A DNA stretch of 64,000 nt from Patescibacteria group bacterium (GCA_038063455.1 JBBTVB010000002.1:193296-257295), one strand, 5' to 3'; positions 8,002 to 40,563 are shown, counted from the first letter of the stretch. Translations and numbers: made by a program. Notes: generated from the letters alone by a model not told the origin.

Positions 8002-8002
8002 A

Positions 8003-9472: not shown

Positions 9473-9517
9473 ACCTGCTAGTATAGCGCGTTTTAGAGAC
9501 CTCTAGATATCCAGTTA

Positions 9518-9546
9518 TTGACGAAGGTTACTCCTTCTAGTAAACT
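9518..9546 (+). promoter_or_regulatory. sigma-70-type promoter TTGACG-N17-TAAACT
   Basis: Read directly. Precedes the SD-led gene at 9590. Confidence 0.5.
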
Positions 9547-9589
9547 TTAGTGAAATCAAAAATGAACTTTCTTAACTAAGGAGTAGGAC

Positions 9590-9928: not shown

Positions 9929-9945
9929 GACATGCATCTTCGGTT

Positions 9946-9982
9946 ACTCCCCGCGTAGCACACTGCGCGGGGAGTTTTTTAT
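9946..9982 (+). terminator. rho-independent terminator
   Basis: ACTCCCCGCG-N9-CGCGGGGAGT followed by a T tract (TTTTTTA). Confidence 0.7.
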
Positions 9983-10043
9983 TTGCCAAAAGCACTGTGC
10001 GCTTCGAGAGAATGTTTAAGGTAAATATTTTCCAGATTCGTAG

Positions 10044-10093
10044 GGGTCGAGCAAGCTCGACCCAAACCCTGCTGGGCAGAGCAAGCTCTGCCC
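10044..10093 (-). terminator. two tandem hairpins sharing the loop GCAAGC
   Basis: GGGTCGA-GCAAGC-TCGACCC and GGGCAGA-GCAAGC-TCTGCCC, located just downstream of the stop at 10105. Confidence 0.5.
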
Positions 10094-10104
10094 CTACACC
10101 TTTA

Positions 10105-11226
10105 TCACTTCCGCCGCCGCATGAAAAAAATTGCACCGCCGCAGAGCAGGATGAGTACCGCACCCACACCAAGGATTGGCAAATATGGTTGACGTTTCGC
10201 TGCAACATGCACGCCCGCAATTTTTGCTTGGCGTTGGTTGCCGGCAGCATCATACGCAGTTACGAGCAGGGCTTTTTGCTGCTTCTGATCTTGTAAAATA
10301 TATGGGCTCGTAGCGGGGTTGGTAACGGTGTCCCCTTCCTGCACGGTGTAGCGCACCACTGCAGACATTACGTCGGTGGCTTGAAACACCAGCACGCGTT
10401 TGCCGGGCACAACATCGCTGGTAACCACCGGTGTAAAATCTTCTGGGCTGGTGGTGTCGACCAGCACCCGACGAATTGCAACCGTACGCCAGCTATCTTT
10501 GGGCAAACGCTCACGCAACACAAAGTAGTGCGCGCCGTCGGCTACGTTGGCATAGGTTGTGGTTGCCACGGCCGTGCCAAACCGTTCATCGGGCAAGGCG
10601 CCGGGGTCGTCGGCCAGAATAAATGCGTAGCTCGCGCCGGTGGTGGGCGTCCAGGCAAGGTGCACGTCGTTGGTCGCGTACCACACCTGCTCTTGCGGGT
10701 GCGTTGTTGAGGTAAGACTAAGCGCGCTATCGTTGACTCCCACCGTTACGACGCTGGCTTCGGTGCGTAACTCGGCAGCCGTACCCAACCCGTCATTCAG
10801 CCGCACGCTGCTGGCAATGCTGTCCAGTACAAAACTGGTTGCCCCCAGCTGCTTGGGCCGGAACACCAGCGAAAGCACGCGACCGTTAATAACATAACTG
10901 CCGTTGGGCACGCCGCCCGTAAACGTTACCGTCCCGGCCACGGCGTCCACGGTCGGGCCAGCGACCCACAGGGTAAGAAACGACCCAGCCTTCGACACCT
11001 CGACAACTTCCAATGCCGCCGGGTCGTAGCTCACCTTGCCTTCGACGGCATTTACCACATCCTGCCCGCTATTTAGCCGTACTTCAACCACCGCGAGCTG
11101 GTCTTGCGGTGCAGTCATTTTTGCCGGTTGCACCGAAAGCACGGCCGCGCGCGCCACGGGCGCAGCAGCACCAAGAAGTACAAGGCCGAGAATGAACGCG
11201 CGAAATAGACGCATATGGTTAGCCAT
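10105..11226 (-). CDS. cohesin-like domain type I membrane protein (paralog 3)
   Basis: Signal peptide, cohesin-like domain (LSVQPAKMTAPQDQLAVVEVRL..GKVSYDPAALEV..GTVTFTGGVPNG), TTHPQEQVWY..DGAHYFVLRE module, and a C-terminal TM helix followed by RRRK. Confidence 0.8.
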   Translation of the reverse strand: MANHMRLFRAFILGLVLLGAAAPVARAAVLSVQPAKMTAPQDQLAVVEVRLNSGQDVVNAVEGKVSYDPAALEVVEVSKAGSFLTLWVAGPTVDAVAGTVTFTGGVPNGSYVINGRVLSLVFRPKQLGATSFVLDSIASSVRLNDGLGTAAELRTEASVVTVGVNDSALSLTSTTHPQEQVWYATNDVHLAWTPTTGASYAFILADDPGALPDERFGTAVATTTYANVADGAHYFVLRERLPKDSWRTVAIRRVLVDTTSPEDFTPVVTSDVVPGKRVLVFQATDVMSAVVRYTVQEGDTVTNPATSPYILQDQKQQKALLVTAYDAAGNQRQAKIAGVHVAAKRQPYLPILGVGAVLILLCGGAIFFMRRRK

Positions 11227-12083
11227 TACTTTGTATCGGTCCAGAAGAAAAGCATGACCGAGAAGTCGATAATGTTTACCGTGCCATCGTGGTTTATATC
11301 CGCGCGCGCATTTGCGGGCGTACGTTGCTGCCAGTAAAATAGCAGGATACTAAAGTCGATGATATCAACTTTCGTGTCTTTGTTTATATCGGCGTCAATA
11401 AACCCGGCATCTGGGTCGGTTACCGATGCCACGGTAAATGCCACCGTATTACTAAACTCGGAAATCATTCCATTTGGGTCTTCCGCTTTTGAGCGTGCGG
11501 TGTGGCTGCCCGCTTGCAAATCATCAGCAAAAAGTTGCTTGGTCCACAACCCGTCTGTGCCAGCCGTCGTGGTGTACTCACGTTCAGTTTCGGACGCAAC
11601 ATACACGTGGACTGTGCTGGTGGGGCTGGTGGCCCCAAAAACCGTGACGGTCTCGCCCAGGGTAAGGGACGTGCGGTCAGCAACGATTGTGGGCCCTAAA
11701 AATATGCCCGAGATAGTAACTGTTGTGCCAGTGGTTAGCGTTACGGTAAAGCTTGACGTCGGGCTTTGCCGGCTTACTGCATCCGCAGAAAAGATGGTAA
11801 AGGTATACGTGCCAGCAGCCAAGCTACCTACCGATACTTCAAAACGTGCTTGCGGGTCAGCAGGAACTTGCACCACCGTTACCCCATCTTTCTGGATAGT
11901 GACGGTAGACGATGGGTACGCAATGCCTTTAAAAATAACCGCAGTTGGCGGCGGTTCGGGCGGGATTGGACTGGGGACTGTGGCAGTGACCGAAATGTCT
12001 ATTGCCTGAGCAGCGGTGCTACCAAGTACAACAAAAAGTACCGCCAGGGTTGCCAATGTCCGGGACCAGCGACCGGTACGCAT
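11226..12083 (-). CDS. secreted protein with Ig-like repeats and a C-terminal type I dockerin
   Basis: Start set at the ATG at 12083 (MRTGRWSRTLATLAVLFVVLGSTAAQA signal peptide). Two dockerin F-hand segments: DINKDTKVDIIDFSILLFYW and DINHDGTVNIIDFSVMLFFW. Confidence 0.75.
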   Translation of the reverse strand: MRTGRWSRTLATLAVLFVVLGSTAAQAIDISVTATVPSPIPPEPPPTAVIFKGIAYPSSTVTIQKDGVTVVQVPADPQARFEVSVGSLAAGTYTFTIFSADAVSRQSPTSSFTVTLTTGTTVTISGIFLGPTIVADRTSLTLGETVTVFGATSPTSTVHVYVASETEREYTTTAGTDGLWTKQLFADDLQAGSHTARSKAEDPNGMISEFSNTVAFTVASVTDPDAGFIDADINKDTKVDIIDFSILLFYWQQRTPANARADINHDGTVNIIDFSVMLFFWTDTK

Positions 12084-12090
12084 GGACGAC

Positions 12091-13131
12091 CTACGCGGTT
12101 CCCTTCGGCGGATTTTGGTTTTTACCGGCCTGGGATTTTGCAACCACCCACTTGTTATACCGCTTGATAAGTACAATGAGCACAACCAGCACAATGATAA
12201 AGCCTAGGCCCCACACCAGCAGCACGTGCCAAGGGAACACAATAAACGTCGTGGTGGCATTCGTTACAACCCCGCCAGTCTGGCCAGCCGTAAGCGCTAG
12301 CGTGGCCGTGTACTTGCCAAAACCAAAGTTTGCTCGTTCGTTGCTGTATTCTTCCCAAAACTTGCCCCAAGCATTGCTGGCTGTTGCAGTAACCACGCCT
12401 TTTTCCCAAACCGCATCATAGCTGCGGGAGGTTTTTGGGAGTGTTGAACGCTTGGTTGGGTTTACGGCAATAGTGCCAACCACTTTTTTGCTCATGCCGG
12501 TAATCGTAATCTCGCCTGACGGCTTAAGGTGGATGTTGCCTGTGTTTTGATACACGGTATTAAAAGTAACCGGTAAACGGTTGGTGCGCGCAACTGTGCT
12601 AAACGCTGTAAGTGCGGCCGACTCAATAACTTCCCCTTCAATGCGCACCAGAAGCAGCGTACCAATGCCTTGGGTAATTGCGAGTTGTGGCTGGTTTGCA
12701 CCAGTGGCTGCTGGCAGCTTGGAAGAAAAGGCGACAATGCCATAGTGCCCGCCAGGTGCAGCATCAGCCGGCACATCGACGGTTATCGTTATTTCTTTGC
12801 GGCCTTGGGGTTCTAGCACAACTGGGGCGGGGTCAAGCGTAATCCAGGTGGCAATGTCTTCTTTTGGTGTGCCAAAATCATACACTGGGAGGCCTTCATC
12901 TGGGCCTGAAGAAAAAGTCGTCGCATCTACAAACAGCTCTTGTTTCGTGTCCCCTTCGTTATACAGCTTTACAACAAATTCTGCCTGGTTGCCAGGTTGC
13001 ACCGTAAATTCAATAGAAGGCGGGCTTATAGTAAGTGCCTGTGCGGGGTTGGTACCAGTAAGTAAGCCGGCAATACCTAACGCAATGGCTAGGATCCCCG
13101 ACGTTAGGTATTTATTTTGCTTAGTCTGCAT
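12091..13131 (-). CDS. DUF916/DUF3324-like (CscA/WxL-interacting-protein-like) cell-surface protein with C-terminal TM anchor
   Basis: Signal peptide. First half: LTISPPSIEFTVQPGNQAEFVVKLYNEGD..WITLDPAPVVLEPQGRKEITITVDVPADAAPGGHYGIVAF. Second beta-sandwich half: LLLVRIEGEV..VYQNTGNIHLKPSGEITI. C-terminal TM helix followed by KRYNK. Confidence 0.65.
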   Translation of the reverse strand: MQTKQNKYLTSGILAIALGIAGLLTGTNPAQALTISPPSIEFTVQPGNQAEFVVKLYNEGDTKQELFVDATTFSSGPDEGLPVYDFGTPKEDIATWITLDPAPVVLEPQGRKEITITVDVPADAAPGGHYGIVAFSSKLPAATGANQPQLAITQGIGTLLLVRIEGEVIESAALTAFSTVARTNRLPVTFNTVYQNTGNIHLKPSGEITITGMSKKVVGTIAVNPTKRSTLPKTSRSYDAVWEKGVVTATASNAWGKFWEEYSNERANFGFGKYTATLALTAGQTGGVVTNATTTFIVFPWHVLLVWGLGFIIVLVVLIVLIKRYNKWVVAKSQAGKNQNPPKGTA

Positions 13132-13265: not shown

Positions 13266-14375
13266 TTAAAACGTACCGGTAGCAATGTAGGTGATGCTCG
13301 TCGAGTAGGCGCCGGCTTCGGTGGCTGCCGAAATGTTGGTAATGTAGTGCGCGTCGATGGTGGTGGAAGCAACCGGCGCGGAGGTCGAGAGCACCGGGAG
13401 GGTTGAGCTGGCAACGAACTTGAAGTTGTTCGAGTTCTCGTCGTACGCAGAGGTATCAGCAAAAGTAAAGGCCGAACCGTTGTCATCAAAACCCATGGCG
13501 AATTGTTCGGTGCCAGGGGTGCCGTCGGCATCGCCCGCAATGGTGGCCACGCTAATGGTGCCGCTGCTTGCCGTGAGGGTTGCGCCGTTGTACGTGAGCG
13601 CGACACCAGACACTGCGTTGGTCCCGAGCGAGAAGGTGTGGGCCGCTTCGCTGGTAGAATCGCAGGCTGCTGGTGGCGTACCATTGGCCCAGCACTCTTG
13701 GGTGGCATCCAGCACCCCAAAGCCAACGGCGACGTCAGAGATAGAGAAGGTCACGGATGGGTCGACCGTGGCGGTCACACTGACCGAGTCGTCGGCAATG
13801 ATTTCGACGGCCAAGCTGCCCGAGTCGCTCGCGCCAGAAGTGATGGTAATCTTTGGGTCGGTGGTGTTTTGGGCCGTCGACTGGTTGTCAATCTGGTTTG
13901 CACCGGTACCAGAGGCTGTGGCATGGGTACCAATTTCAACGGTAATAGTTTCACTACCCGTAAAGTCGCCACCGTCACCTGTACAGAGGGTGAAGGTAAC
14001 AGTCTGACCAGAGATAACCACACTCGCATCTTCTGCTGCGGTACAGTCTGCCGCTGTAGTTAACTCGCCTTCCGTGCTACCAGCAATGTCCACATCATCT
14101 TCTATAATACCGGTTAAGCTAAAACCGGTTGGGAAAGTGAGAACAATGGTTGCCGCGTTTGCAACCCCCGATGGTGACACCCAAGAAATGGTGTGGTTTG
14201 CGTTTGCGGTGGTTGCAATGGTGGACAGTGTATCTTTAAAACTGGTAACTGCTGCTGCACGTGCCGGGCTTACCGGCAGGAACATGGCAAACAGGCCAAG
14301 TATCGCAACAACCGCAACGGCTTTGCGGGCCGCTCGGTGAGTCTTTAGAGTATTGAGGGTAAAATGCATATGCAT
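13266..14375 (-). CDS. secreted protein with WxL-like C-terminal module
   Basis: Signal peptide ending in ARAAA. The last ~150 aa are homologous to the C-terminus of the giant protein. The protein ends in ..AGAYSTSITYIATGTF. Confidence 0.6.
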   Translation of the reverse strand: MHMHFTLNTLKTHRAARKAVAVVAILGLFAMFLPVSPARAAAVTSFKDTLSTIATTANANHTISWVSPSGVANAATIVLTFPTGFSLTGIIEDDVDIAGSTEGELTTAADCTAAEDASVVISGQTVTFTLCTGDGGDFTGSETITVEIGTHATASGTGANQIDNQSTAQNTTDPKITITSGASDSGSLAVEIIADDSVSVTATVDPSVTFSISDVAVGFGVLDATQECWANGTPPAACDSTSEAAHTFSLGTNAVSGVALTYNGATLTASSGTISVATIAGDADGTPGTEQFAMGFDDNGSAFTFADTSAYDENSNNFKFVASSTLPVLSTSAPVASTTIDAHYITNISAATEAGAYSTSITYIATGTF

Positions 14376-14411
14376 TGGCCTAAATAGTGAGTTTTATTTT
14401 AACTAAGAAAT

Positions 14412-14440
14412 AGTATAGCACAGAACCAGAAAATATGCAA
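14412..14440 (-). promoter_or_regulatory. sigma-70-type promoter TTGCAT-N17-TATACT
   Basis: Read on the minus strand upstream of the 369-aa gene. Confidence 0.5.
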
Positions 14441-14452
14441 ACCCACGTAATG

Positions 14453-14612
14453 AATTACCACCCCGTCTCCCGCAGTAGCGGGATCCACCCCTCCTTATTC
14501 AAGGAGGGGATGCAATACTTGACTCTGCCTCCCCTCCTCGGTTGAGGAGGGGGCCGAAGGCGGCGCGACCCATCGGGAGCGACTGGAGCCCCGAAGGGGC
14601 GGGGTGGTAATT
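14453..14612. repeat. 160-nt hairpin-rich element bounded by 13-bp perfect terminal inverted repeats
   Basis: AATTACCACCCCG (14453-14465) pairs with CGGGGTGGTAATT (14600-14612). Internal hairpins: TCCCGC/GCGGGA, CCCCTCCTT/AAGGAGGGG, CCCCTCCTC/GAGGAGGGG and GCCCC-GAAG-GGGC. Confidence 0.55.
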
Positions 14613-14613
14613 T

Positions 14614-17600
14614 TTAAAACGTCCCCGTGACAATGTACGTTACGGCAGTGGTGTACGTGCCCGGCTGGGTGATTGTGGCAATGTTACACATGTAGTACAC
14701 GCTCGCCGTTTCGGTTGTGGTTGTAGCGGTAGTTTTCGTAAGTAACGGCGTCGTGGTGCTCGGCACGAATGAATAGTTGTTACTGGCCTGCTGGTATGCC
14801 GAGGGTATGGTACCGCTGCCGCTGGTGGTAATACCCATGGCAAATTGCTTGCTGCCTGGGGTGCCGTCAGCATCGCCGGTGAACGTAGCAGCGGTTATGG
14901 TTTCGGGGCCGGTGAGCGTGGCACCATTGTATGTGAGCGCGTACCCTTCGAACGCGCTCGTCGTAATCGCCAGCGTGTGCGCCGCAACTGCACTCCCCGA
15001 ACCCGTGGCATCGGCACTTGCCCACCGCGCGGCACTGCTAGAAAGGGTGCCAAAACCTACGGCCACATCGTTTATGGCAAAGGTGAGGGTATGAATATTC
15101 CAACAGCTATTGCCGCCGATGTCGTGGCTAGTGCCGTCGCTAGCGTCAATGTCTGGCGCTTGGCCGCAGGCATTGGAGTCTTTTACTTCCGTATACGTCA
15201 CCGCTCGGGTGCCAGCCACATTCACATTCCACTGCGTGCCGCCGGTGGAGCTGCGCAACGCCACCCGCGTGCCTGTGGCTTGCCCGTTGAGCGTAAGGTG
15301 TTGCAACGTGTAGGTGCCGCTCGCCAGAAAACGCAGCTTGGTGCTGGCCGTGCTGGCATTAAAAGTGTTAGCAGTATCCGCAGCGGCAGCAAAGATAACA
15401 GAGGGCGACGAAACCGGATCCGAACCCGAAGCATTGGTAATAGTGAGGTTATAGAAACGGTCACTGGCACCAGTCAGTTGGCCATCCACCGTCTGCTGGC
15501 TCGCACCGTCCAGCGTTACCGTACCAGTGCCATCCGTAAAGTCGCCGTTGTTGGTCCAGTTGCCTGCCACGGTGAATGCTGCGGTTGACGAGGCTTGCAG
15601 TGTCGTACCCGAACCAATTGTGACGGCACCGTTGGCATCGATAATGCGGTCGTTGGTTTCATTATCCACAACCAGCGACGTGCCGCTGTTGGTGGTGGTT
15701 AACGTATTCGCGACAATCGTTTGTCCGGTGCCGGTACTATTAAAGGTAATGGTCGGCGTACCAGACGAAGCCGTAAACGTGAGATTGTAGAACGTCCAGT
15801 TGGTGGCCACGGCTACGTTGGTGCCAAAACTCTTGCTGGCAGCAACCGACTGCGTGAAAGTATTAGAGCCGGCACTGTTCATAGTAATGGTGCCGCATGA
15901 GGCGCCGCACTGTACATTGCCATTCACCGTTACGCTGGCTGTGCCCGTGGCCGTATCAAACGTCCCAGCCGTCATGGTCAGGTCGTTAGTGACGGTCATA
16001 GTGTTCGTCAGCGGTGACCACGCCCCGCCCGAGCCGTTGAAAATAACATTATAGAAACTGGAAGCTCCGTTGTTGATGGTCTTGCCCGTACCCGTGGACT
16101 TAAAATTGACCGTTGTGGTGTTGTGCGTGAACGTGCTGCTATTGGTCCAGTTGCCAAACACGTCGAACGTGGCGCTACCCGTGCCCACCAGCGTGCCGGC
16201 GTTGCTCAAGTGGTGGGTGGCAAGGGTTTCGGTCGTGCCGATGGTAAGCGTATTGCTCGCTTTCATCGTAAGCTGTTCGGTGCTGTAACCGCCGAGGCCA
16301 TCCACGGTGAGCACGCTGACATTGGCCGTGTGCATGATGTCTTCGCTCTGGTCATTGTCATACAGGCCTAGGTCCGTGAGTACCAAACTGGCGTTGTCGT
16401 CGCTGCCCACAGTGAGCACGTTCGTATCCAGCGCTAGCCCGCCGATATTCCCCGTGCCATCGTACTTCGTCACGCCAGTCGTCTCGGCCGCATCGACTGC
16501 TGATTCAACGTAGACCGTTACTTTGTCGCCCGAGCTCACGCTCACCCCGGTAATTGTCCAGGTGGCAGCGAGCGTGGTGGTCTGTGCTTGGAGCGAGCTA
16601 TTCACCGCCACCCGCACGGTGCCGCCGGAGCTATTCGAGGTACCCGCCACGTCAATACCGGTAGGAAACGTCCAGTTGGTATTATTAGCACAGTCTTTGC
16701 TGGTACCATCGGTCGCAATCACCGTATTACCGGTAGCGGTGGAATATGACACATCTACGTACGTCACCGTTTGCGTCACTGGCGCGGCCAAAGTCCACAC
16801 CGACGTTGTAGAAGATCGAAGCACTACCCGGTTACCAACGCCGCCCTGTAAATTGAGCGTTGTGGAAACGGTGACCGTAGAACCTGCCAAGAACTGCACC
16901 TTCACACCCGCCGTCGCAATATTCAGCGTCGCGGTAGTGACGCTCGCCGCGAAAATTACCCCGTACGCCGAGGGTGTGCCGCAGCTATCGTTGGTGTACG
17001 TGCCGTTGATATTCGTAATAGTCAGGACGTTAAAATCCGAACTGCCAGTCATGGTTGCGCTCAAGGTCTGCTGGCCCGTACCGTTTAACGTGACCGTGCC
17101 GCCGCTGTCTGTAAACGTACCGCTGTTCGCGTAGTCGCCTTTTAGGTTAAGCGCCCCACCGCTAGGAGCAGTTAACGTAGTGTCTGCCGCAATAGTTGTG
17201 TTGCCGCCCACGGTAAAGGTGGGGTCGTTGGTGTTCAGGTCGACAATGGTGGTGCTGGAGCCGGTGCCGCTATTGAGGAGTTCTAATTTGCCCGCCAGGG
17301 TTATGGTCTGGCTGCCAGCAGTGCCCACAGCGAGCGTACGGCCGGCCGTGGTGCTGCTGTTGTCCACTTCTACCAACTGGTAGTCGGTGCGCTGGCTCAT
17401 GGTTTGGTTGCCGCCGTTGGCGTCAAACCGCAATATAATCCCACTGGCCAGCGTGCCGCCGGTGGGGAAAGCCGTCGTGCTGCGGTAGGTATACCGACCC
17501 GGTCCGCTCAGCGTCCCACTAAGGGTGAGCGTGGTACCGGTGTGCGTGAGCGTCCGGCTGGTATCAACGATAAGATCGTCAGCAGAAGTAATACTGAGCG

Positions 17601-20600
17601 TACCGGCGACCGTGAGGTCTGATGTTTGCAAGGTAACGTTGCCGGAACCTGAAGGGGTAATGGTTAGATTGTTGAGGGTTTGACCCGCGCCAACAATAGT
17701 TTTGCCGGTTCCGCGCATCTGCACGGTTGAGGAGCCGGCGGTAATGGTGCCGCCGGTGAAATCCAAATTGCCATCAATATAGTGGTTCGCATTCGCTAGG
17801 GTAATGGAACCCGAAAGCGTGACGTTGTAGAGCGACCCGGACGAAGTAAGGGTCTTGGCACTCCCATTCATAACCAGCGTATTATTGGTACTGCCAGAGT
17901 AGCTCCCGCCGCTCAAGTCCACGTTCCCGCTCACCGTCCAGGTACCCGAGCCGCTTGCAATTGCTTCTGCCTCGGCACCCGTTCCTGTAAAATCTAGGTT
18001 GCCACCAATGGTAATCGTGGGGTTGTTTGTGGTGCCACTTAACGTTAATACCGACTCGAAATCTGGACCATCGGCAATAAGGTATAGGTGGGAGCTGGTA
18101 CCAGAAAGCGTGTACGTGCCGCTGGCCAGCGTAAAGGTGGGTGAGCTGGCGGCATTGTTGTATAGCTCTACTCTGCCGTTATAGGTTCGAGCGTCTAAGG
18201 TGGTGCTGGCAATGTTTCCAGCCGAGGCATCAAACCGAGTTACGCAACTAATTGTGCCGCCAGTGCCGGGGCCGCCTGCAGTATCGGTAAACCGCAGAGT
18301 GCCTGCATCCCCAATGGTTCCGCTATTAACAATATTTGGGCTACCCGTCACTGTAATGGTCACGCCGGTATCAATGCCAAGAAAGTCTGAGTTCGAGACT
18401 GAAAATTGATTCGAAACCGTAAAGCTACTGCCTGCGCAGTGCGCCTTGGCGCCTGGATTACTATGAAAGTCTATATTGTAAAAGGTATTACCCGCACCAT
18501 AGAAGGTTGGGCTGCTTTCAGCACAACTCGACCCATTTGCAGAGGTTTGCATCAGTAGGGTATTCCCGCTTGTTGCCGTATACGTGCCGCCCGTAAAATC
18601 TACAATACCTGACATTGTCCAGGTGCCCGTACCAGACTGAATGACTTCGGAGCTCGTGCCCGTGCCGGTAAAGTCCAAGCCGTCGCTAATGTTGATGGTT
18701 GGATTATTGGTCGTGCCGGTGAGCGTGACATTCCCCGGGCTGGCACCGTCGGCAATGACGTGGAGAGAGGAAGCGATGTCGTACGTTCCCGAAGCCAGCG
18801 TCACCGTGCGGGCCGTGGTGCTATTAGAATAGACTTCCAGCAACCCGCCATAAATGCGAGCGTCCAGCGTGGTGGAAGCGATGTTGCCGCTGGTGGCAAC
18901 GTAGCGCACGTTAGCATTGAGCGTGCCGCTGGTGCCCGGGCCGCCGGACGCATCGGTAAAGGCGAGCGTGCCAGCCCCGCTGATGGTACTGGAACTATTG
19001 CCCCAGGTGAGTGTGGCGCCGGTGTGCGTCAACGTTCGGCCTGAACCAATCGAAAGCGTATCATTGGATGCAATCGTGAGGGTGTTCGCAACGGTGAGAT
19101 CGCTGGTGCTCAACGTAATGGTGCCGGTGGAACTGGGGTCGATAGTCAAAGCGTAAATAGTGGCACCGCCACCCACCAGCGAACCAGCAGTACCGACCAT
19201 CGTAATGGTATTGCTGCCATGCGTCACCGATGCGGGCAAAGTGAGATTATTGTTTATTGTAAAATTAGAGGCAAACGTGGGTGTGCCGGACAACGTAAGG
19301 TTATAGAAGGTGGTGGAGCCGGAAACGCCGCCAATGCTGCCCGTGCCGGAAACGGTGACAGTTGGGACGCCCGAAGTAGTGGTTATGACCCCGGTACCCG
19401 CATTGGTAATGTCCCCGCCGCTTACCGTGGTGTCGGCATTAATATTGAGCGTGGCACCGGTGTCCACAATCACGTCGCGGCCAATCGCATTTGTAGCGTT
19501 TCCCAAGGTCACGGTCGCACTGTCGTCCAGGTGCAAGTCGCCGCCGGTAGCATTCGTGGTAACGGTGCCGCCAGGGTCAAAGGTGTCGCCTGTCCAAATG
19601 TGCAACTCTATGCCACTGCTAACGGTGAGAGTGCCGCTGTTTGACGTAAAGCCAATTTCCGTGTCCGTGCAGTTTGTTCCAGTGTCGTTGTCACAGCTAG
19701 ATACATTAGCGTTCGTCACCGATCCGGTATGCTCGTTACGAAAGATGGTACGGTTTTGATAAATAGATAAACCCGTACAGTTTAGGTAACCAGTACACGT
19801 ACTGCCGTACTTAAGGACGAGAGATCCATCGGCCGTCGCACCGTTAATCCATATAGTCAGTATATCCCCAACGGTTGGCACCGTTACCCCGGTAATCGAC
19901 CAGTTCCCCGAGCCATCCGTGCCATCGGCATCCGAGAACGTACTCCCTGTGGTGGAGTTGACCAGTTTGATAGAGCCACCGCTGCTATTCAGCGTAGAAC
20001 CCGACTCGTTAGTGTATGCAACCCCCGAAACCGTAATGCTGGTAAAGTAGGTAATTTCAATATACGGATCGCTACCTGTTCCAGTGAATTCCTTGGAGGC
20101 AAAGTGGTCCAGATTGTTTCCCGAAGCCACGTACCCAGAAGGATTGAACAATACAAAGTCTACAGCGCTGCCCCAAGTGAGGCCGGCAATGCTATTGGTG
20201 GCTCCCGAACCGTTGAGCGTCCAGGTATACCAAGCATCAGCTGTGCCGTTGCCTGTGAGCGCGGTGGAGTCTACAATGGTGCCGCTGTAGTCGCCACCGG
20301 CACTTGCCCAGTTATTCGTGCCATCGTACCGGTTCCAGGTAACGCCCGTTGACCCAACGGCGGTGTCACACACACTGCCTTCGGTAAACGCCTGCGTGAG
20401 TTCGTGCAGTTCGTACGATCGCGACGTTGCTGAATTGCCGCCAGAATATGTGGATACATCGTAGCGATAGAGGTACAAGTCAATGTTGGTAATGGTTCCG
20501 GAACCCGATGTCAGCGTCCAGTCCATGACCGGCCGGTAGTTGTACACTGCGTCGTCTAGAATGCGACCGGCGTGCAAGTACGTGCAGCTCCCATATCCGC

Positions 20601-23589
20601 GGGTCGGCAGCGACAAGCGCATATGGCTGTCGCGACTGTTAGTCGAGCCGGTATCGATGTCGTCAACCAACACTTGCGGATACTGCAGACCCGTCGGTAT
20701 TTGCACGTAGACTTTCGTGCCGTCCAAAACGAACTTAGAGCGTGTTATAAGTGCTTCATCAACACAGGTTTTGCGCGTGCACTCACGCATCAGTCCAGAG
20801 TCGGCATCTGGCAAACCAGTAACGATGCCATCTGGGTATACCTGGTGGATTTCTTCACTGGTCAGCTCTGCGTTCTTTACAGACAGTTTTAGAAACGGCC
20901 GACGATCGGGTTGAAAAAAGTAGGGTGTTTCAAAAAACCACAGATTCGTGCCGCGCTTGTCGGCAACATTAATTACTTGTCCGTCTGCAGACACCGAAAG
21001 CACGGCCCACTCTGGTAGCTCAACGTACAACTGCCGACCATCGGCTGGGGCGGTGCTCACGAGAATTTCACCAGGCGGTGGTATGTTTGGCAGCGGCTGG
21101 TACGCCGTACCGTCGAAGTAGTTAAGATAGTTTGCGCTCTGTACGCGAATATTTTCGTTCTCGCTCTTCCGAAAATCCACAGAATCGGCTGTTCGCTCAG
21201 TCGGGACCTCGGGCATGCGTCGGTCGCCAGAATAACGCTTGCGAAGTTCGGCGACATTTGGCTGTACCGCATCGTCAAAAGCGGCAATTTTGCCCAGCGT
21301 CGAAGTTTCAAAAATGATGGAATCACCGGTATTTGTGAACGGTACATCCAGTGGTTCCCAGGCGGTACAACTGCCGTCGGCGGCTTCGGTGGCACAAATT
21401 TTAAGCGCATTTACAAAACCATTTTTGGGCAGCTCAATGCGAGTTTGGGTCACTGTTCGGCGCGGTTCATCAATAGTTGCGGACTTCTGGTTTGGCGAAT
21501 CGGCAGGTGATGGCCGAGTGCGAAGAAGGCGGTGGTCTGCCCTGCCTTCGGTTTGCAATATGCGGGGCAGGATTTGCAAGTCATCCGACGCAATTTGCCA
21601 CTGCCGGCTTTCTTGGTAATCCTCCACCTTCGCTCCACCCTCCGTAGCAGAGCTACTGCGGAGGACGGGCAAGGCTTCAGTGGACGAAGCCACCCGCACG
21701 GGCCCAAGGCGGAACAATTCTGGACTAATATCCGGCGCATCGTATCGGTAAGTTAAGGTATGTGTGGTGCGGGCTACCCAGTCTACCTGCCAGCGAATAG
21801 TGGTGCGTTGCTGGCTCTTTATAATTTTGCCGCCATCGCTTACGTTAAGTATCTCGAAAGAGGGCGGCACGTAGTCTTCGACCACGCCAGTAAAATCTTT
21901 TTGCGGGCGCACGTCTAAGGCCATGGTGTAGGCCGCGGGCGGGTAAATGCGCATGCTGCCCCGGCGGCTTATGGCAAAGGGGATAACCGCGTCGACAACA
22001 ACCGTATCCGTAATGGTGTACTCGCCACTGGCCGTCTTGGCCGTGAGGGTTACGGCGTAGCTGCCTTCGTCAAAGGTCTCGTACTCGGCACTGTAGTCCG
22101 CTACGTCGGTCACGTTGTCTGGCCCACAGGTAGCAGAACGCTTAACGCCGTCTTTTTCCTGCTCGGTGGTTTGCACGCTCTTCGTCCCGTCGGGCGCAAC
22201 CACAGTGAGCACCAGCTTGGCATCGCACAGTGTATGGCCCTCGGGGTCCAGCACGCCCATCCCAAACTGCACAGTTTCACCGGGCCAGTACACCGAGCGG
22301 TTCATGTTAATAACCAACACGCCCCAGGTGAACTCTGTAGTCACAATGGCTAGCTTGTTGTCTTGCAACACGGTTACCTGGGCAGTGTACTTGCCGGGCT
22401 TGGTAAATTTGTCGGTATGAATGTTGAGTTTGGCGTAGGTACTGCTCCCTTCGGTAACATTCTGTACATCAAAACTTGCTACCTGCACGGTGCCTTCGGG
22501 TGTAGTTACCTGCACTTCATCAACGGTTCGCTTGGTGTCTTTGAAGCCCAAAAACTTTAGGCGGGCTTGCTTCTGCACTTCCACCTTCACCACGGGCTCT
22601 TCGTTGGTGGGTACGTCGTGCTTTTCGACCTGCACCACATTGGCAGGCAGATTGAGCGCCTCGGCCGAAACCACTTGGCGCACGGCGACATGCAAGGCCA
22701 TGCCATCGACATACGCGCGGACAGTTTTCTCCGTGGGCACGCTGGCAAACCGGACGCGTACTTGCAAGCTCGACAGATTGTCCTGGTTGAGCGCGGGGAA
22801 TGGGTACGTCCGGTACCCGCCATTGCTCGCGTTGCTGGTGTCTTCAGTGAGAAAGAACGATTCAAGCGTCGACCACTGGCTGCCGTCTAAGCTCGATTCA
22901 ATGACGAGTGCATCAACACTTTCGGCATTCCCCAGGCCGCCGAGTGAAACCTGCAGGTCAATATTTCGAACATCGACGCCAGTTGGGAAGTCATCTGGCA
23001 GGGCAAAGCCGCGGCATTTTAGGATTGGTTCGCCCACTGGTGCATCCGCACTCTTGCGGCTAGCAATGCTGGCGCTATTCGACGCACTAAAACTGCCCAC
23101 ATCGCTACTCCCAAGCAAGTCGAGGGTTGTCGCTTTGCCGGCATCTTGCCAACCCGTGCAGGCAGTGGGCGAAATGTTGTACGAACGGCTGGTACTTTGC
23201 GCGTGGCCCAAAAAACCAAAGCCGAACACCGCAACGATTGCCAGCATGCCTGCGGATTGCAGCAGCGTGCGTTGGAAAAAAAGTTTTAACGCTACCGCCG
23301 CCCTAACCTGCGCCCGATGGCGACGCAACGCCAGCATGCGTAGGGTTTGATGCTGCAGGCGCTGCGCCTGGGTCAAACGCGGACGGCTTCGTACGGCTTG
23401 CACAACACCGAAATGCTTTTGCGGAACAACTTTTTTTGGCGTGGTACTTTTTGCTCGCACGCGTGCAGACCGCAAGCCTATGGGTTTGTTCTTAGTGTAT
23501 CGTGTTGTGCCAATTTTTTTCACAAATTTTTGTGTGTCACTGTAGAAAAATCCACTATATATTATGCCAAATTTCAGCTCAAACCACAA
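14614..23589 (-). CDS. giant (2991-aa) surface protein: beta-helix-like T/S/G/N-rich repeats, DNRLRE-like segment, WxL-like C-terminal module
   Basis: Uninterrupted ~9.0 kb ORF. The first start is TTG at 23589; an alternative ATG at 23337 precedes the only N-terminal hydrophobic helix (MLAIVAVFGFGFLG). Contains VTWNRYDGTNNWASAGGDY (DNRLRE-like). The C-terminus ..TAVTYIVTGTF is homologous to that of 13266..14375. Confidence 0.85.
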   Translation of the reverse strand: MWFELKFGIIYSGFFYSDTQKFVKKIGTTRYTKNKPIGLRSARVRAKSTTPKKVVPQKHFGVVQAVRSRPRLTQAQRLQHQTLRMLALRRHRAQVRAAVALKLFFQRTLLQSAGMLAIVAVFGFGFLGHAQSTSRSYNISPTACTGWQDAGKATTLDLLGSSDVGSFSASNSASIASRKSADAPVGEPILKCRGFALPDDFPTGVDVRNIDLQVSLGGLGNAESVDALVIESSLDGSQWSTLESFFLTEDTSNASNGGYRTYPFPALNQDNLSSLQVRVRFASVPTEKTVRAYVDGMALHVAVRQVVSAEALNLPANVVQVEKHDVPTNEEPVVKVEVQKQARLKFLGFKDTKRTVDEVQVTTPEGTVQVASFDVQNVTEGSSTYAKLNIHTDKFTKPGKYTAQVTVLQDNKLAIVTTEFTWGVLVINMNRSVYWPGETVQFGMGVLDPEGHTLCDAKLVLTVVAPDGTKSVQTTEQEKDGVKRSATCGPDNVTDVADYSAEYETFDEGSYAVTLTAKTASGEYTITDTVVVDAVIPFAISRRGSMRIYPPAAYTMALDVRPQKDFTGVVEDYVPPSFEILNVSDGGKIIKSQQRTTIRWQVDWVARTTHTLTYRYDAPDISPELFRLGPVRVASSTEALPVLRSSSATEGGAKVEDYQESRQWQIASDDLQILPRILQTEGRADHRLLRTRPSPADSPNQKSATIDEPRRTVTQTRIELPKNGFVNALKICATEAADGSCTAWEPLDVPFTNTGDSIIFETSTLGKIAAFDDAVQPNVAELRKRYSGDRRMPEVPTERTADSVDFRKSENENIRVQSANYLNYFDGTAYQPLPNIPPPGEILVSTAPADGRQLYVELPEWAVLSVSADGQVINVADKRGTNLWFFETPYFFQPDRRPFLKLSVKNAELTSEEIHQVYPDGIVTGLPDADSGLMRECTRKTCVDEALITRSKFVLDGTKVYVQIPTGLQYPQVLVDDIDTGSTNSRDSHMRLSLPTRGYGSCTYLHAGRILDDAVYNYRPVMDWTLTSGSGTITNIDLYLYRYDVSTYSGGNSATSRSYELHELTQAFTEGSVCDTAVGSTGVTWNRYDGTNNWASAGGDYSGTIVDSTALTGNGTADAWYTWTLNGSGATNSIAGLTWGSAVDFVLFNPSGYVASGNNLDHFASKEFTGTGSDPYIEITYFTSITVSGVAYTNESGSTLNSSGGSIKLVNSTTGSTFSDADGTDGSGNWSITGVTVPTVGDILTIWINGATADGSLVLKYGSTCTGYLNCTGLSIYQNRTIFRNEHTGSVTNANVSSCDNDTGTNCTDTEIGFTSNSGTLTVSSGIELHIWTGDTFDPGGTVTTNATGGDLHLDDSATVTLGNATNAIGRDVIVDTGATLNINADTTVSGGDITNAGTGVITTTSGVPTVTVSGTGSIGGVSGSTTFYNLTLSGTPTFASNFTINNNLTLPASVTHGSNTITMVGTAGSLVGGGATIYALTIDPSSTGTITLSTSDLTVANTLTIASNDTLSIGSGRTLTHTGATLTWGNSSSTISGAGTLAFTDASGGPGTSGTLNANVRYVATSGNIASTTLDARIYGGLLEVYSNSTTARTVTLASGTYDIASSLHVIADGASPGNVTLTGTTNNPTINISDGLDFTGTGTSSEVIQSGTGTWTMSGIVDFTGGTYTATSGNTLLMQTSANGSSCAESSPTFYGAGNTFYNIDFHSNPGAKAHCAGSSFTVSNQFSVSNSDFLGIDTGVTITVTGSPNIVNSGTIGDAGTLRFTDTAGGPGTGGTISCVTRFDASAGNIASTTLDARTYNGRVELYNNAASSPTFTLASGTYTLSGTSSHLYLIADGPDFESVLTLSGTTNNPTITIGGNLDFTGTGAEAEAIASGSGTWTVSGNVDLSGGSYSGSTNNTLVMNGSAKTLTSSGSLYNVTLSGSITLANANHYIDGNLDFTGGTITAGSSTVQMRGTGKTIVGAGQTLNNLTITPSGSGNVTLQTSDLTVAGTLSITSADDLIVDTSRTLTHTGTTLTLSGTLSGPGRYTYRSTTAFPTGGTLASGIILRFDANGGNQTMSQRTDYQLVEVDNSSTTAGRTLAVGTAGSQTITLAGKLELLNSGTGSSTTIVDLNTNDPTFTVGGNTTIAADTTLTAPSGGALNLKGDYANSGTFTDSGGTVTLNGTGQQTLSATMTGSSDFNVLTITNINGTYTNDSCGTPSAYGVIFAASVTTATLNIATAGVKVQFLAGSTVTVSTTLNLQGGVGNRVVLRSSTTSVWTLAAPVTQTVTYVDVSYSTATGNTVIATDGTSKDCANNTNWTFPTGIDVAGTSNSSGGTVRVAVNSSLQAQTTTLAATWTITGVSVSSGDKVTVYVESAVDAAETTGVTKYDGTGNIGGLALDTNVLTVGSDDNASLVLTDLGLYDNDQSEDIMHTANVSVLTVDGLGGYSTEQLTMKASNTLTIGTTETLATHHLSNAGTLVGTGSATFDVFGNWTNSSTFTHNTTTVNFKSTGTGKTINNGASSFYNVIFNGSGGAWSPLTNTMTVTNDLTMTAGTFDTATGTASVTVNGNVQCGASCGTITMNSAGSNTFTQSVAASKSFGTNVAVATNWTFYNLTFTASSGTPTITFNSTGTGQTIVANTLTTTNSGTSLVVDNETNDRIIDANGAVTIGSGTTLQASSTAAFTVAGNWTNNGDFTDGTGTVTLDGASQQTVDGQLTGASDRFYNLTITNASGSDPVSSPSVIFAAAADTANTFNASTASTKLRFLASGTYTLQHLTLNGQATGTRVALRSSTGGTQWNVNVAGTRAVTYTEVKDSNACGQAPDIDASDGTSHDIGGNSCWNIHTLTFAINDVAVGFGTLSSSAARWASADATGSGSAVAAHTLAITTSAFEGYALTYNGATLTGPETITAATFTGDADGTPGSKQFAMGITTSGSGTIPSAYQQASNNYSFVPSTTTPLLTKTTATTTTETASVYYMCNIATITQPGTYTTAVTYIVTGTF
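17380..19160 (-). repeat. large in-frame tandem repeats inside the giant gene (~220-aa units)
   Basis: GNIASTTLDAR(I/T)Y is encoded at ~18850-18900 and again at ~18190-18240, with a degenerate third unit at ~17383-17442. The flanking units ..TSDLTVA.TL.I.S.D....RTLTHTG.TLT are repeated at ~19010-19140 and ~17521-17640. Confidence 0.6.
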
Positions 23590-24019: not shown

Positions 24020-24026
24020 ATCGAGC

Positions 24027-25178: not shown

Positions 25179-25194
25179 AGGCGGGCGGGGCAGG

Positions 25195-40560: not shown

Positions 40561-40563
40561 ATT

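What the first reader, a model, noticed from the sequence alone, without database searches (positions are those of the whole stretch)
13266..15090. Shared C-terminal module ending in the invariant ..TYI(A/V)TGTF-COOH in two otherwise unrelated secreted proteins
The last ~150 residues of the 369-aa protein are ..FSISDVAVGFGVLDAT..HTFSLGTNAVSGVALTYNGATLT..IAGDADGTPGTEQFAMGF..NFKFVASSTLPVL..AGAYSTSITYIATGTF. Those of the giant protein are ..FAINDVAVGFGTLSSS..HTLAITTSAFEGYALTYNGATLT..FTGDADGTPGSKQFAMGI..NYSFVPSTTTPLL..PGTYTTAVTYIVTGTF. The two are colinear. Both end at exactly the same alternating beta-strand motif at the very C-terminus. A conserved free C-terminal strand suggests one of three roles. 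It could be a sorting or anchoring signal, a donor strand for polymerisation, or the binding epitope for the adjacent DUF916-like protein. The pattern (G.Y.T.(I/V)TY..T) parallels the second WxL motif, but with Y-I in place of W-x-L.
Basis: seen in the sequence. Interest (0 to 1): 0.55.

Follow-up and report, generated by a model that had tools for sequence, protein, structure and literature searches.

The report
Pam pilus pilin and tip adhesin
The shared tail of the two proteins is the subunit-joining domain of the Pam pilus, described in 2026 in ultra-small CPR bacteria: the small protein looks like the shaft subunit and the giant one like an adhesin at the pilus tip, in an operon with a new way of anchoring the pilus.

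Summary
The 369-aa and 2991-aa proteins share a 164-residue C-terminal module (46% identity, E 1e-28), and both end in TYI(A/V)TGTF-stop.

The module is not an orphan. It matches NCBIfam NF058581, the C-terminal domain of Pam pilus pilins. A 2026 preprint showed by cryo-EM that this truncated Ig-like domain accepts a donor strand from the neighbouring subunit.

In 279 of 280 relatives the module ends at the last residue. In 73 of 77 related loci a DUF916-like membrane-anchored protein (the chaperone) follows directly. The other four contigs end too soon to tell.

The 369-aa protein has the full pilin layout: signal peptide, N-terminal sandwich, conserved linker ADDSVSVTATVDPS and C-terminal domain. 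The giant protein has only the acceptor domain and no linker, so it can accept a strand but not donate one. I read it as a FimH/PapG-style tip adhesin.

Two points go beyond the published description:
- A downstream protein starts, once mature, with the same strand (IDISVTATVPSP) and ends in a dockerin. Three membrane cohesin proteins follow it, which suggests cohesin-dockerin anchoring of the pilus base.
- The chaperone family is homologous to the WxL-interacting protein of Firmicutes.

The parts
13266..14375 (-). Pam-type major pilin, 369 aa: signal peptide (res 1-40, cleavage after ..PARA), N-terminal beta-sandwich (about 41-189), linker, C-terminal acceptor domain
   Evidence: NF058581 CPR_Pam_pilin_C 69.8 bits, above the 55-bit cutoff, E 2.6e-19. 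AF2 mean pLDDT 92.5, two beta domains. 210 homologues, nearly all 345-390 aa.
13755..13808 (-). Linker and candidate donor strand of the pilin (res 190-207, VEIIADDSVSVTATVDPS)
   Evidence: Among the most conserved stretches of the pilin. Coil, not self-paired, in the monomer AF2 model. Covered by the module profile in 194 of 202 pilin-sized relatives but in few of the large ones. The role follows the cryo-EM PamA/PamB description in the preprint.
13269..13754 (-). Shared module, copy 1: C-terminal acceptor domain of the pilin (res 208-369), ending in the near-invariant strand SITYIATGTF (13269-13298)
   Evidence: BLASTP E 1e-28 to copy 2. NF058581. Conservation profile.
14614..23589 (-). Giant secreted protein, listed ORF 2991 aa. 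The real start is probably ATG at 23337 or 23247, ahead of the hydrophobic segment MLAIVAVFGFGFLGHAQS. Proposed tip adhesin.
   Evidence: Thr/Gly/Ser-rich. The only Pfam hit is an MG2 domain at res 429-480. It carries the module but no linker. Large linker-less module proteins lie upstream of the pilin in 18 related loci.
14617..15090 (-). Shared module, copy 2: C-terminal acceptor domain of the giant protein (res 2834-2991), preceded by the junction NACGQAPDIDASDGTSHDIGGNSCWNIH instead of a linker
   Evidence: Family profile E 4.2e-60, profile positions 32-193 only. NF058581 E 3.2e-11, 43.5 bits, below the 55-bit cutoff. AF2 pLDDT 94.1, pTM 0.88. The best Foldseek PDB hit is the PapGII pilin domain bound to PapD, 2wmp_B.
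12091..13131 (-). Membrane-anchored DUF916-like protein, 346 aa; proposed PamC/PamD-type chaperone. Signal peptide, two beta domains, C-terminal TM helix (12148-12240), basic tail.
   Evidence: PF06030 E 3.9e-4 for this protein; 41 of 88 homologues hit PF06030. The best PDB sequence match of the family profile is EfmWxLIP1, 9i25_C and 9i1y_A, E 7e-4. It lies immediately downstream of the pilin in 73 of 77 loci. The TM tail is conserved.
11226..12083 (-). Proposed pilus terminator and adaptor (listed ORF runs to 12194; likely start M38 at 12083): signal peptide, mature N-terminus IDISVTATVPSP (11967-12002), Pro-rich spacer, two Ig-like domains, C-terminal dockerin
   Evidence: Big_13 E 8.4e-10, Dockerin_1 E 3.6e-8. 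The only dockerin in the window. Homologues follow the chaperone in 38 of 61 loci. 42 of 45 carry V-[ST]-[IV]-[ST]-A-x-V at the mature N-terminus, against 2 of 550 background ORFs.
10105..11226 (-). Cohesin-domain membrane protein 1 (373 aa, C-terminal TM and RRRK tail); proposed docking site
   Evidence: Cohesin PF00963 E 2e-4. Paralogous to the next two proteins. Conserved downstream of the dockerin protein.
8003..9472 (-). Cohesin-domain membrane protein 2 (489 aa, TM helix and a cytoplasmic tail of about 90 aa)
   Evidence: Cohesin E 2.8e-6, above Pfam's threshold.
6250..8001 (-). Cohesin-domain membrane protein 3 (583 aa, TM helix and a charged cytoplasmic tail)
   Evidence: Cohesin E 2e-8, above threshold. 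OmpL47-type domain 46 bits.

Best explanation
The shared module is the C-terminal domain of Pam-type pilins of CPR/Patescibacteria. It is an incomplete Ig-like domain whose groove is filled by a beta strand from another protein (donor-strand complementation and exchange).

Proposed mechanism:
1. All components are exported by Sec (seen in the sequences: each has a signal peptide).
2. The membrane-anchored DUF916-like protein (346 aa) holds newly exported subunits by inserting a strand into the module's groove (inferred from the Pam preprint and from WxLIP-WxL predictions).
3. The 2991-aa protein has the acceptor module but no donor linker. It can only be the first, distal subunit, a giant tip adhesin comparable to FimH or PapG (shown: the linker is absent; inferred: the tip position).
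4. Copies of the 369-aa pilin insert their linker strand (ADDSVSVTATVDPS) into the module of the preceding subunit and offer their own module to the next one, building the shaft (inferred by homology to the PamA/PamB cryo-EM structures).
5. The 322-aa protein caps the last module with its mature N-terminal strand (IDISVTATVPSP). It ties the fibre to the cell by binding its C-terminal dockerin to the cohesin domains of three membrane proteins encoded next (inferred from motif identity, position and conserved synteny).

The near-invariant C-terminal strand ..G-x-Y-x-T-x-(I/V)-T-Y-I-A-T-G-T-F is most likely an edge strand of the acceptor groove. It would pair first with the chaperone strand and then with the donor strand. 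That would explain why it is the most conserved piece of the protein and why it must end the protein (inferred).
For: Family assignment:
- The small protein scores 69.8 bits against NF058581 CPR_Pam_pilin_C, above the 55-bit cutoff.
- All 19 module sequences match NF058581, including the giant's module scanned alone. The giant's module gives E 3.2e-11.
- The preprint 10.64898/2026.03.03.709456 gives cryo-EM structures of PamA and PamB. [quoted passage not shown] Its PamT is the C-terminal domain alone at the tip. PamC and PamD are PapD-like chaperones with a C-terminal TM helix. PamR is a terminator with an extra N-terminal strand and a TM helix.

Structure:
- AF2 of the pilin has pLDDT 92.5, with two beta domains and an unpaired linker.
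- AF2 of the giant's module has pLDDT 94.1.
- Its best PDB Foldseek hit is the PapGII pilin domain in complex with PapD (probability 0.98). About half of the top 50 hits are chaperone-usher pilin domains: Csu, Caf1, FimA, PapA, CfaB, SafA, PapE, FimG.

Family behaviour:
- The profile finds 1728 cluster representatives.
- The module ends at the last residue in 279 of 280 proteins. The profile match reaches profile position 12 or earlier (upstream of and through the linker) in 194 of 202 pilin-sized proteins. In 30 of 40 large proteins (455-3574 aa) it starts only at position 20 or later, and inspection shows a different junction sequence in place of the linker.

Synteny in 77 loci:
- The gene order is large linker-less protein, then pilin(s), then chaperone.
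- The chaperone is present in 73 of 77 loci; the other four stop at a contig end.

Conservation: the C-terminal strand, the first strand of the C-terminal domain and the linker are among the most conserved segments, as the preprint reports for the donated linker and its binding site.

Terminator:
- The N-terminal strand motif is present in 42 of 45 dockerin-protein homologues, against 2 of 550 background ORFs.
- It occurs only four times in window ORFs of at least 150 aa.
- The dockerin and cohesin genes follow in 37 of 61 loci.
- Two loci without a dockerin gene have instead a 225-aa protein with the same N-terminal strand and a C-terminal TM helix, like PamR.
Against: - The open groove, the pairing of the C-terminal strand with a donor strand, and the chaperone interaction are therefore inferred, not seen.
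- The Foldseek matches to chaperone-usher pilin domains are individually weak (E >= 0.011, TM 0.3-0.5).
- The giant's module scores below NCBIfam's curated cutoff (43.5 against 55 bits).
- The chaperone gives no NCBIfam hit, and its PapD-like fold was not tested here.
- In 5 of 40 large module proteins the match reaches profile position 12 or earlier, so they may keep a linker. Large size alone does not mean tip.
- The Pam assembly order rests on AlphaFold predictions in a preprint.
- Cohesin-dockerin pairing within this operon is assumed from co-occurrence only.
Confidence: 0.8

Rival explanations
1. WxL-like display without polymerisation. The module is a distant WxL-type domain. Both proteins are held singly on the cell surface, non-covalently on the wall or on the DUF916-like protein, as proposed for small and large WxL proteins with WxLIP in Firmicutes. 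No fibre forms.
For: - The layout matches WxL clusters: a small protein, a large protein with the module at its C-terminus, and a DUF916-type protein with a TM helix (PMC10599100).
- The chaperone family hits PF06030 (41 of 88) and EfmWxLIP1 in the PDB (E 7e-4).
- AF2 in that paper predicts that a WxLIP strand completes the WxL sandwich.
Against: - No PF13731 (WxL) hit in 74 family members at E <= 10, and no W-x-L motifs.
- The small protein passes the curated Pam pilin model.
- Homologous Pam pilins were seen as filaments by cryo-EM.
- The strongly conserved linker strand, repeated at the mature N-terminus of the dockerin protein, has no role in this scheme.
- No DUF3324 hit in the chaperones.
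Confidence: 0.1
2. The giant protein is not part of the fibre. It uses the same module only to dock on the membrane-anchored chaperone, as a stand-alone surface adhesin. The pilus is built from the 369-aa pilin alone.
For: - The giant's module is more divergent (43.5 bits).
- A chaperone-bound end state is what the WxLIP-WxL model proposes.
- No PamT-like gene (C-terminal domain only) is needed for this.
Against: - A fibre needs a first subunit, and the giant is the only linker-less module protein in the window.
- Large linker-less proteins sit directly upstream of pilin genes in 18 loci.
- Its groove-lining segments are conserved with the pilin's.
Confidence: 0.07
3. The C-terminal motif is a sorting signal, recognised and perhaps cleaved by a dedicated secretion or attachment enzyme, as with LPXTG, PEP-CTERM or type IX C-terminal domains.
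For: Strict location at the extreme C-terminus in 279 of 280 proteins and near-invariance of the last 8 residues.
Against: - The motif is the last beta strand of a confidently folded domain.
- No hydrophobic helix or basic tail follows it.
- No sortase, exosortase or protease gene lies in the conserved operon.
- The domain matches a pilin domain seen intact in cryo-EM filaments.
Confidence: 0.03

Closest known systems
Pam pili of CPR bacteria (PamA, PamB, PamE, PamT, PamC/D, PamR of Ca. Mycosynbacter amalyticus; preprint 10.64898/2026.03.03.709456; NCBIfam NF058581 and NF058579)
   Same: - C-terminal pilin domain (curated model hit).
- Pilin layout: signal peptide, N-terminal sandwich, linker, C-terminal domain.
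- Paired cysteines in the pilin: C111/C131 and C228/C238.
- An adjacent chaperone-like protein with a C-terminal TM helix.
- A subunit carrying only the acceptor domain, for the tip.
- A terminator with an extra N-terminal strand.
- Restriction to CPR.
   Different: - The linker-less subunit is a protein of about 2900 aa with a huge N-terminal region, not the 241-aa PamT.
- There is one pilin gene rather than PamA, PamB and PamE, and one chaperone rather than two.
- The terminator ends in a dockerin instead of a TM helix and is followed by three cohesin membrane proteins.
- The preprint does not mention cohesin, dockerin, adhesin, DUF916 or WxL.
- Related loci come from Kerfeld-, Doudna-, Nomura-, Moranii- and Niyogibacteria and Paceibacterota MAGs as well as Saccharibacteria. 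The preprint stresses Saccharimonadia and Microgenomatia.
Chaperone-usher pili of Gram-negative bacteria (type 1/Fim, P/Pap, Caf1, Csu), especially the two-domain tip adhesins FimH and PapG
   Same: - An incomplete Ig-like pilin domain completed by a donated strand.
- The best PDB fold matches are chaperone-usher pilin domains, led by the PapG pilin domain with PapD.
- The tip adhesin logic: a binding region followed by a pilin domain without its own donor strand.
- An invariant Gly 14 residues before the C-terminus (G355) and a terminal aromatic residue. From my memory, chaperone-usher subunits have a similar conserved C-terminal motif; I did not check this here.
   Different: - No usher gene in the operon, and no outer membrane expected.
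- The chaperone is membrane-anchored.
- The donor strand is an internal linker between two domains, not an N-terminal extension (except in the terminator).
- No detectable sequence similarity.
WxL clusters of Firmicutes (small WxL, large WxL, WxLIP = DUF916-DUF3324-TM; PMC10599100, PMC9772566)
   Same: - The same three-part gene logic, with the module at the extreme C-terminus of a small and a large protein.
- The partner protein is homologous in its DUF916 domain and has a C-terminal TM helix.
- A strand of the partner is predicted to complete the module's sandwich.
- A similar C-terminal strand pattern, G-x-Y-x-x-x-(I/L)-T-(Y/W)-x-(A/L).
   Different: - No W-x-L motifs and no PF13731 match.
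- No DUF3324 match in the chaperone.
- WxL proteins are described as peptidoglycan-bound, not polymerised.
- No linker donor strand is known in them.
- Different phylum.
Cellulosome-type cohesin-dockerin anchoring (scaffoldins of Clostridia)
   Same: A type I dockerin (PF00404, E 3.6e-8) on a secreted protein, and cohesin domains (PF00963) on cell-anchored proteins encoded together.
   Different: - No glycoside hydrolases.
- The cohesin proteins are anchored by a TM helix, not by SLH domains or sortase.
- The dockerin protein carries a pilin-type donor strand, so the cargo would be a pilus.
- Binding was not tested.

Membership tests
Pam pilus pilin C-terminal domain (NCBIfam NF058581 CPR_Pam_pilin_C) | Score above the curated cutoff (55 bits) of the family model | tested here: met
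   369-aa protein: 69.8 bits, E 2.6e-19, profile positions 15-148 of 148, ending at the last residue. Module alone: 73.4 bits.
Pam pilus pilin C-terminal domain (NCBIfam NF058581 CPR_Pam_pilin_C) | The same, for the giant protein's module | tested here: inconclusive
   E 3.2e-11 but 43.5 bits, below the 55-bit cutoff. The full-length protein gave no hit. Homology to the small protein's module is clear (BLASTP 1e-28; family profile 4.2e-60).
Pam pilin (PamA/PamB type) | [quoted passage not shown] | tested here: met
   AF2 pLDDT 92.5: helix 14-31 (signal peptide), about 10 strands at 44-189, coil at 190-207, 7 strands at 208-367. The fold of this domain type was tested on the giant's homologous module, whose best matches are chaperone-usher pilin domains. 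The open groove itself could not be inspected because no coordinates were available.
Pam pilin (PamA/PamB type) | Assembles into filaments by donor-strand exchange | not testable with these tools
   No multimer prediction was available. Inferred from homology and from conservation of the linker and groove segments.
Pam operon | Adjacent PapD/FimC-like chaperone with a C-terminal TM helix | tested here: inconclusive
   An adjacent protein with a C-terminal TM helix is present in 73 of 77 loci. Its PapD-like fold was not modelled here. It is homologous to DUF916/WxLIP. No NCBIfam chaperone model matched.
Pam operon | Tip subunit with an acceptor domain and no linker (PamT) | tested here: met
   The giant protein matches profile positions 32-193 only, with an unrelated junction in place of the linker. 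It is about 2900 aa rather than 241 aa, so it is not a PamT equivalog: NF058579 gives 19 bits against a cutoff of 240.
Pam operon | Terminator with an N-terminal strand and a membrane anchor (PamR) | tested here: inconclusive
   The N-terminal strand motif is present. The TM helix is replaced by a dockerin, with cohesin-TM proteins downstream. A form with a TM helix occurs in L066 and L068. RbmA-like fold not tested.
Pam operon | Restricted to CPR/Patescibacteria | tested here: met
   The window protein is identical to a protein of a 'Patescibacteria group bacterium' MAG. The 77 genome loci are CPR MAGs, plus a few bins with implausible names.
WxL domain (Pfam PF13731) | Match to the WxL model and two Trp-x-Leu motifs | tested here: not met
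   0 of 74 family members hit PF13731 at E <= 10. The module has Y-I-A where the second W-x-L would be, and no W-x-L elsewhere (sequence).
WxL cluster | Partner protein of the form DUF916 + DUF3324 + TM helix | tested here: inconclusive
   DUF916 in 41 of 88 homologues, best E 3.1e-8. DUF3324 in 0 of 88. TM helix present. PDB EfmWxLIP1 E 7e-4 over the first domain only.
Chaperone-usher pilins (Fim/Pap) | Ig-like pilin fold lacking the last strand | tested here: inconclusive
Chaperone-usher pilins (Fim/Pap) | Outer-membrane usher and periplasmic soluble chaperone | tested here: not met
   No usher-like gene among the operon's seven genes. The chaperone-like protein has a TM anchor.
C-terminal sorting signals (LPXTG, PEP-CTERM and similar) | Signature motif followed by a hydrophobic helix and a basic tail | tested here: not met
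   Both proteins end in a polar beta strand..TYIATGTF-stop, with no helix or tail.

The most novel reading that the evidence does not exclude
In many non-Saccharibacteria CPR lineages the Pam pilus would be a three-part device not yet described. It would have a giant tip adhesin (up to about 3500 aa) fused to the acceptor domain and a shaft of one pilin. A terminator subunit would plug the last pilin with an N-terminal donor strand and fix the fibre to the cell through a dockerin bound to membrane cohesin proteins. In addition, the Pam chaperone and the WxL-interacting protein (DUF916) of Firmicutes and Actinobacteria would share ancestry. WxL clusters of lactobacilli, enterococci and Listeria would then work by the same strand-complementation principle and might even polymerise.
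Probability: 0.35. Interest if true: 0.7.

Novelty: new variant of a known kind. Interest (0 to 1): 0.5.

Why it matters
CPR bacteria are thought to live attached to other microbes, yet how they recognise and hold a host is largely unknown. Pam pili were identified only in 2026, and no receptor-binding component was named for them.

- If the giant proteins are tip adhesins, they are the obvious candidates for host specificity. They would also explain why such large genes sit in these tiny genomes.
- A cohesin-dockerin joint at the pilus base would be a new use of a module known mainly from cellulosomes. It would also be a new solution to anchoring a fibre in a cell without an outer membrane or sortase.
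- The homology between the chaperone and WxLIP gives a testable mechanism (strand complementation by a membrane-anchored chaperone) for the poorly understood WxL surface proteins of enterococci, Listeria and lactobacilli.
- For annotation, NCBIfam's cutoff misses the giant members. The C-terminal signature [TY]-Y-I-A-T-[GA]-x-F-stop, together with presence or absence of the DDSVxVTATVDP linker, separates shaft pilins from tip proteins.

Tried and rejected
- Sequence searches of the PDB with the pilin, the module profile and the full pilin profile gave nothing meaningful. The Pam cryo-EM chains did not appear as sequence hits in that copy.
- Foldseek with the full two-domain pilin model returned only tandem-Ig adhesins (ClfA, SdrG, CNA, integrins) at TM about 0.2 and rmsd of 16-32 A. 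I treated this as uninformative.
- A Pfam scan of 74 family members at E <= 10 found no WxL hit. The scattered weak hits (Inhibitor_I42, DUF2808 and others) are noise.
- I looked for WxL-type neighbours of DUF916 genes on plasmids. tblastn found DUF916 proteins in Clavibacter, Streptomyces, Arthrobacter and Deinococcus. The small secreted protein beside the Clavibacter one ends ..AGDYSSTITLSLFE, but hhalign against the module profile aligned only those 12 residues (probability 0.9%). This is not evidence of homology.
- Self-BLAST of the giant protein gave no repeat pairs at E <= 1e-5. Pfam on 600-aa pieces found only MG2. Its binding region remains uncharacterised.
- NCBIfam has no match for the chaperone family.
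- I considered a sorting-signal reading and rejected it (see rival explanations).

Full report
**1. The observation**

The region holds two minus-strand genes, 13266..14375 (369 aa) and 14614..23589 (2991 aa as listed). BLASTP aligns the last 163 residues of the small protein with the last 158 of the giant one: 46% identity, 66% positives, E = 1e-28. All other local alignments between them have E >= 0.029. A tblastn search and a profile search of all six frames find only these two copies in the 64-kb window. Both copies run to the stop codon and end in SITYIATGTF and AVTYIVTGTF.

**2. What the module is**

Pfam has no model for the module, but NCBIfam does. The small protein scores 69.8 bits against NF058581, 'CPR_Pam_pilin_C, Pam pilus system pilin subunit' (cutoff 55; E 2.6e-19). 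The match runs to the last position of both model and protein. The giant's module, scanned on its own, matches the same model at E 3.2e-11. At 43.5 bits it falls under the curated cutoff, and the full-length protein is missed altogether.

The model's source is a 2026 preprint (10.64898/2026.03.03.709456). It reports cryo-EM of filaments from the CPR bacterium Ca. Mycosynbacter amalyticus and identifies two pilins, PamA and PamB. [quoted passage not shown] The operon also encodes:
- PamT, the C-terminal domain only, proposed to sit at the tip;
- PamC and PamD, PapD/FimC-like chaperones with a C-terminal transmembrane helix;
- PamR, with an N-terminal strand and a TM helix, proposed as terminator and anchor.

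**3. Behaviour of the family**

A profile of the module (alignment A1) finds 1728 cluster representatives at E <= 1e-3 among 1.84 billion proteins. For the 280 family proteins I hold:
- The module ends at the very last residue in 279.
- All 136 homologues from the first two searches end in TYIATGTF or a near variant.
- Across 117 full-length pilins the C-terminal nonamer is the most conserved window of the protein. Next come TYNGATLT, ISDxxxGFG and the linker ATVDPS. This agrees with the preprint's statement that the donated linker and its binding site are the most conserved parts.

The family splits in two.
- In 194 of 202 pilin-sized proteins (<= 420 aa) the profile match reaches position 12 or earlier. 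That stretch includes the conserved segment SDSGSLAVEIIADDSVxVTATVDPS just before the C-terminal domain.
- In 30 of 40 large proteins (455-3574 aa) the match starts only at profile position 20 or later. These carry a different junction, often NACGQAPDIDASDGTNxDxxNNxCWxF.

The window's giant protein belongs to the second group (profile positions 32-193).

**4. Structure**

AlphaFold2 models the 369-aa protein with mean pLDDT 92.5. It has a signal-peptide helix, a sandwich of about ten strands (44-189), an unpaired segment at 190-207 and a seven-strand C-terminal domain whose last strand is 361-367. The giant's module folds the same way (pLDDT 94.1, pTM 0.88).

Foldseek of that domain against the PDB puts the pilin domain of the PapGII tip adhesin bound to PapD first (2wmp_B, probability 0.98, E 0.011, TM 0.50). 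It then lists Csu, Caf1, FimA, PapA, CfaB, SafA, PapE and FimG subunits. About half of the top 50 hits are chaperone-usher pilin domains, though each match is weak on its own.

**5. Gene context**

A scan of one genome per species returned 77 loci, essentially all CPR MAGs.
- In 73 of them a homologue of the 346-aa neighbour lies immediately downstream of the pilin on the same strand. The other four contigs end there.
- 44 loci have two or more module genes.
- 18 loci have a module ORF longer than 600 codons; in the loci listed it lies upstream of a pilin gene.
- The order is: large linker-less protein, then pilin(s), then chaperone(s).

The 346-aa protein has a signal peptide, two beta domains and a conserved C-terminal TM helix with a basic tail. 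The best PDB sequence match of the family profile is EfmWxLIP1 (9i25_C and 9i1y_A, E 7e-4).

**6. The rest of the operon**

The next gene (11226..12194) encodes a protein whose mature N-terminus, right after the cleavage site ..TAAQA, reads IDISVTATVPSP. This is the same strand as the pilin linker DDSVSVTATVDPS. A Pro-rich spacer, two Ig-like domains and a type I dockerin follow.
- Homologues lie directly after the chaperone, and 42 of 45 carry V-[ST]-[IV]-[ST]-A-x-V at the mature N-terminus. Only 2 of 550 other ORFs do.
- In the window the motif occurs only four times in ORFs of at least 150 aa.
- Three paralogous proteins with an N-terminal cohesin domain and a C-terminal TM helix follow. 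They are the only cohesins in the window, and the dockerin is the only dockerin.
- The dockerin-plus-cohesin arrangement is present in 37 of 61 loci with enough downstream sequence.
- Two loci without it have a 225-aa protein with the same N-terminal strand and a TM tail, like PamR.

**7. Mechanism I consider most likely (confidence about 0.8 for the core)**

The module is the acceptor domain of a donor-strand-exchange pilus.
- The giant protein can accept a strand but cannot donate one, so it starts the fibre and ends up at the tip as the adhesin.
- The 369-aa pilin builds the shaft.
- The DUF916-like protein is the membrane-anchored chaperone that occupies the groove before exchange.
- The dockerin protein caps the last groove and ties the fibre to the membrane cohesins.
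- The near-invariant C-terminal strand is best explained as the edge of the groove that pairs with the chaperone strand and then with the donor strand.

Shown here: homology, architecture, presence or absence of the linker, synteny and motif statistics. Inferred: all the physical contacts.

**8. Comparison with known systems**

The small protein is a member of the Pam pilin family because it meets the curated model. The giant protein is a homologous but sub-threshold carrier of the same domain in a new architecture. The system works like chaperone-usher pili but is not one: there is no usher, the chaperone is membrane-anchored, and the donor strand is internal.

It is not a WxL system either: there is no PF13731 match in 74 members, no W-x-L motif and no DUF3324. 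The parallel is still striking. WxL clusters hold a small WxL protein, a large protein with a C-terminal WxL domain, and a DUF916-DUF3324-TM protein. AlphaFold predicts that a strand of that protein inserts in parallel into a gap of the WxL sandwich (PMC10599100). In the held library, the only paper containing both 'donor strand' and 'WxL' is a 2013 general review of bacterial surface-colonisation proteins, which I did not open. The Pam preprint does not mention WxL, DUF916, cohesin, dockerin or adhesin.

**9. Verdict**

The finding is real and well explained by a system published in 2026, so the module itself is not new. Three things are new relative to that description: the giant linker-less carriers, the dockerin/cohesin anchoring module, and the homology of the chaperone with WxLIP. 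I rate it a new variant of a known kind, with interest 0.5.

Noticed in passing
window 6250-12194 (-): A dockerin-bearing protein (322 aa) starts, once mature, with the pilin linker motif. Three cohesin + TM proteins follow it. The arrangement is conserved in 37 of 61 related loci, which suggests a cohesin-dockerin anchor for the pilus base.
   Followed up: yes
L066:6149-6835 and L068:4016-4690: In loci without the dockerin gene, a ~225-aa protein after the chaperone has the same N-terminal strand (SVNITAQV / SVNVTAIV), a Pro-rich spacer and a hydrophobic segment plus basic residues at the C-terminus (the automatic TM test flagged only L068). It resembles the published PamR.
   Followed up: partly
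PDB entries 9i1y and 9i25 (chain C): Solved structures named EfmWxLIP1 exist and are the best PDB sequence match of the chaperone family (E 7e-4). I found no paper for them in the library. The other chains of 9i25 might include a bound WxL protein.
   Followed up: partly
L078:6098-7912 (Clavibacter phaseoli plasmid pCCh) and L079 (Deinococcus plasmid): DUF916 proteins outside Firmicutes and CPR match the CPR chaperone (tblastn E 1e-4 to 1e-5). In Clavibacter a small secreted protein sits next to it and ends ..AGDYSSTITLSLFE, a similar C-terminal strand pattern. hhalign found no significant homology.
   Followed up: partly
window 37866-44000: A low-GC island (0.38-0.43 against about 0.54) starts at a tRNA gene (37923-37994) and a large serine recombinase (37866..39563, -). 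It is probably an integrated mobile element.
   Followed up: no
window 43534-43653 (+): A full-length match to the Rfam family LOOT RNA (RF03000, 86.7 bits, gathering score 46.4), at the edge of the low-GC island.
   Followed up: no
window 51145-54240 (-): A second large surface-type protein (1031 aa) with SpaA/SdrD_B and CarboxypepD_reg domains. It does not carry the Pam module.
   Followed up: no
window 23991-24974 (+), 25104-25399: An XerC/D-like tyrosine recombinase is transcribed divergently from the giant gene, followed by two tRNA genes.
   Followed up: no
loci L001, L004, L019, L021-L023, L037, L057, L007: Contigs carrying this CPR-type operon belong to MAGs named 'uncultured Gammaproteobacteria bacterium', 'Candidatus Methylomirabilis sp.' or 'candidate division FCPU426'. 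These are probably mislabelled or contaminated bins.
   Followed up: no
window 14614-23589 (-), residues 2294-2308 and 2815-2832: The junction preceding the module (DG-T-x-D...N-x-W-x-F/I) occurs twice in the giant protein. It is also conserved before the module in many giant homologues, so it may mark the end of a repeated beta-helix-like unit.
   Followed up: partly
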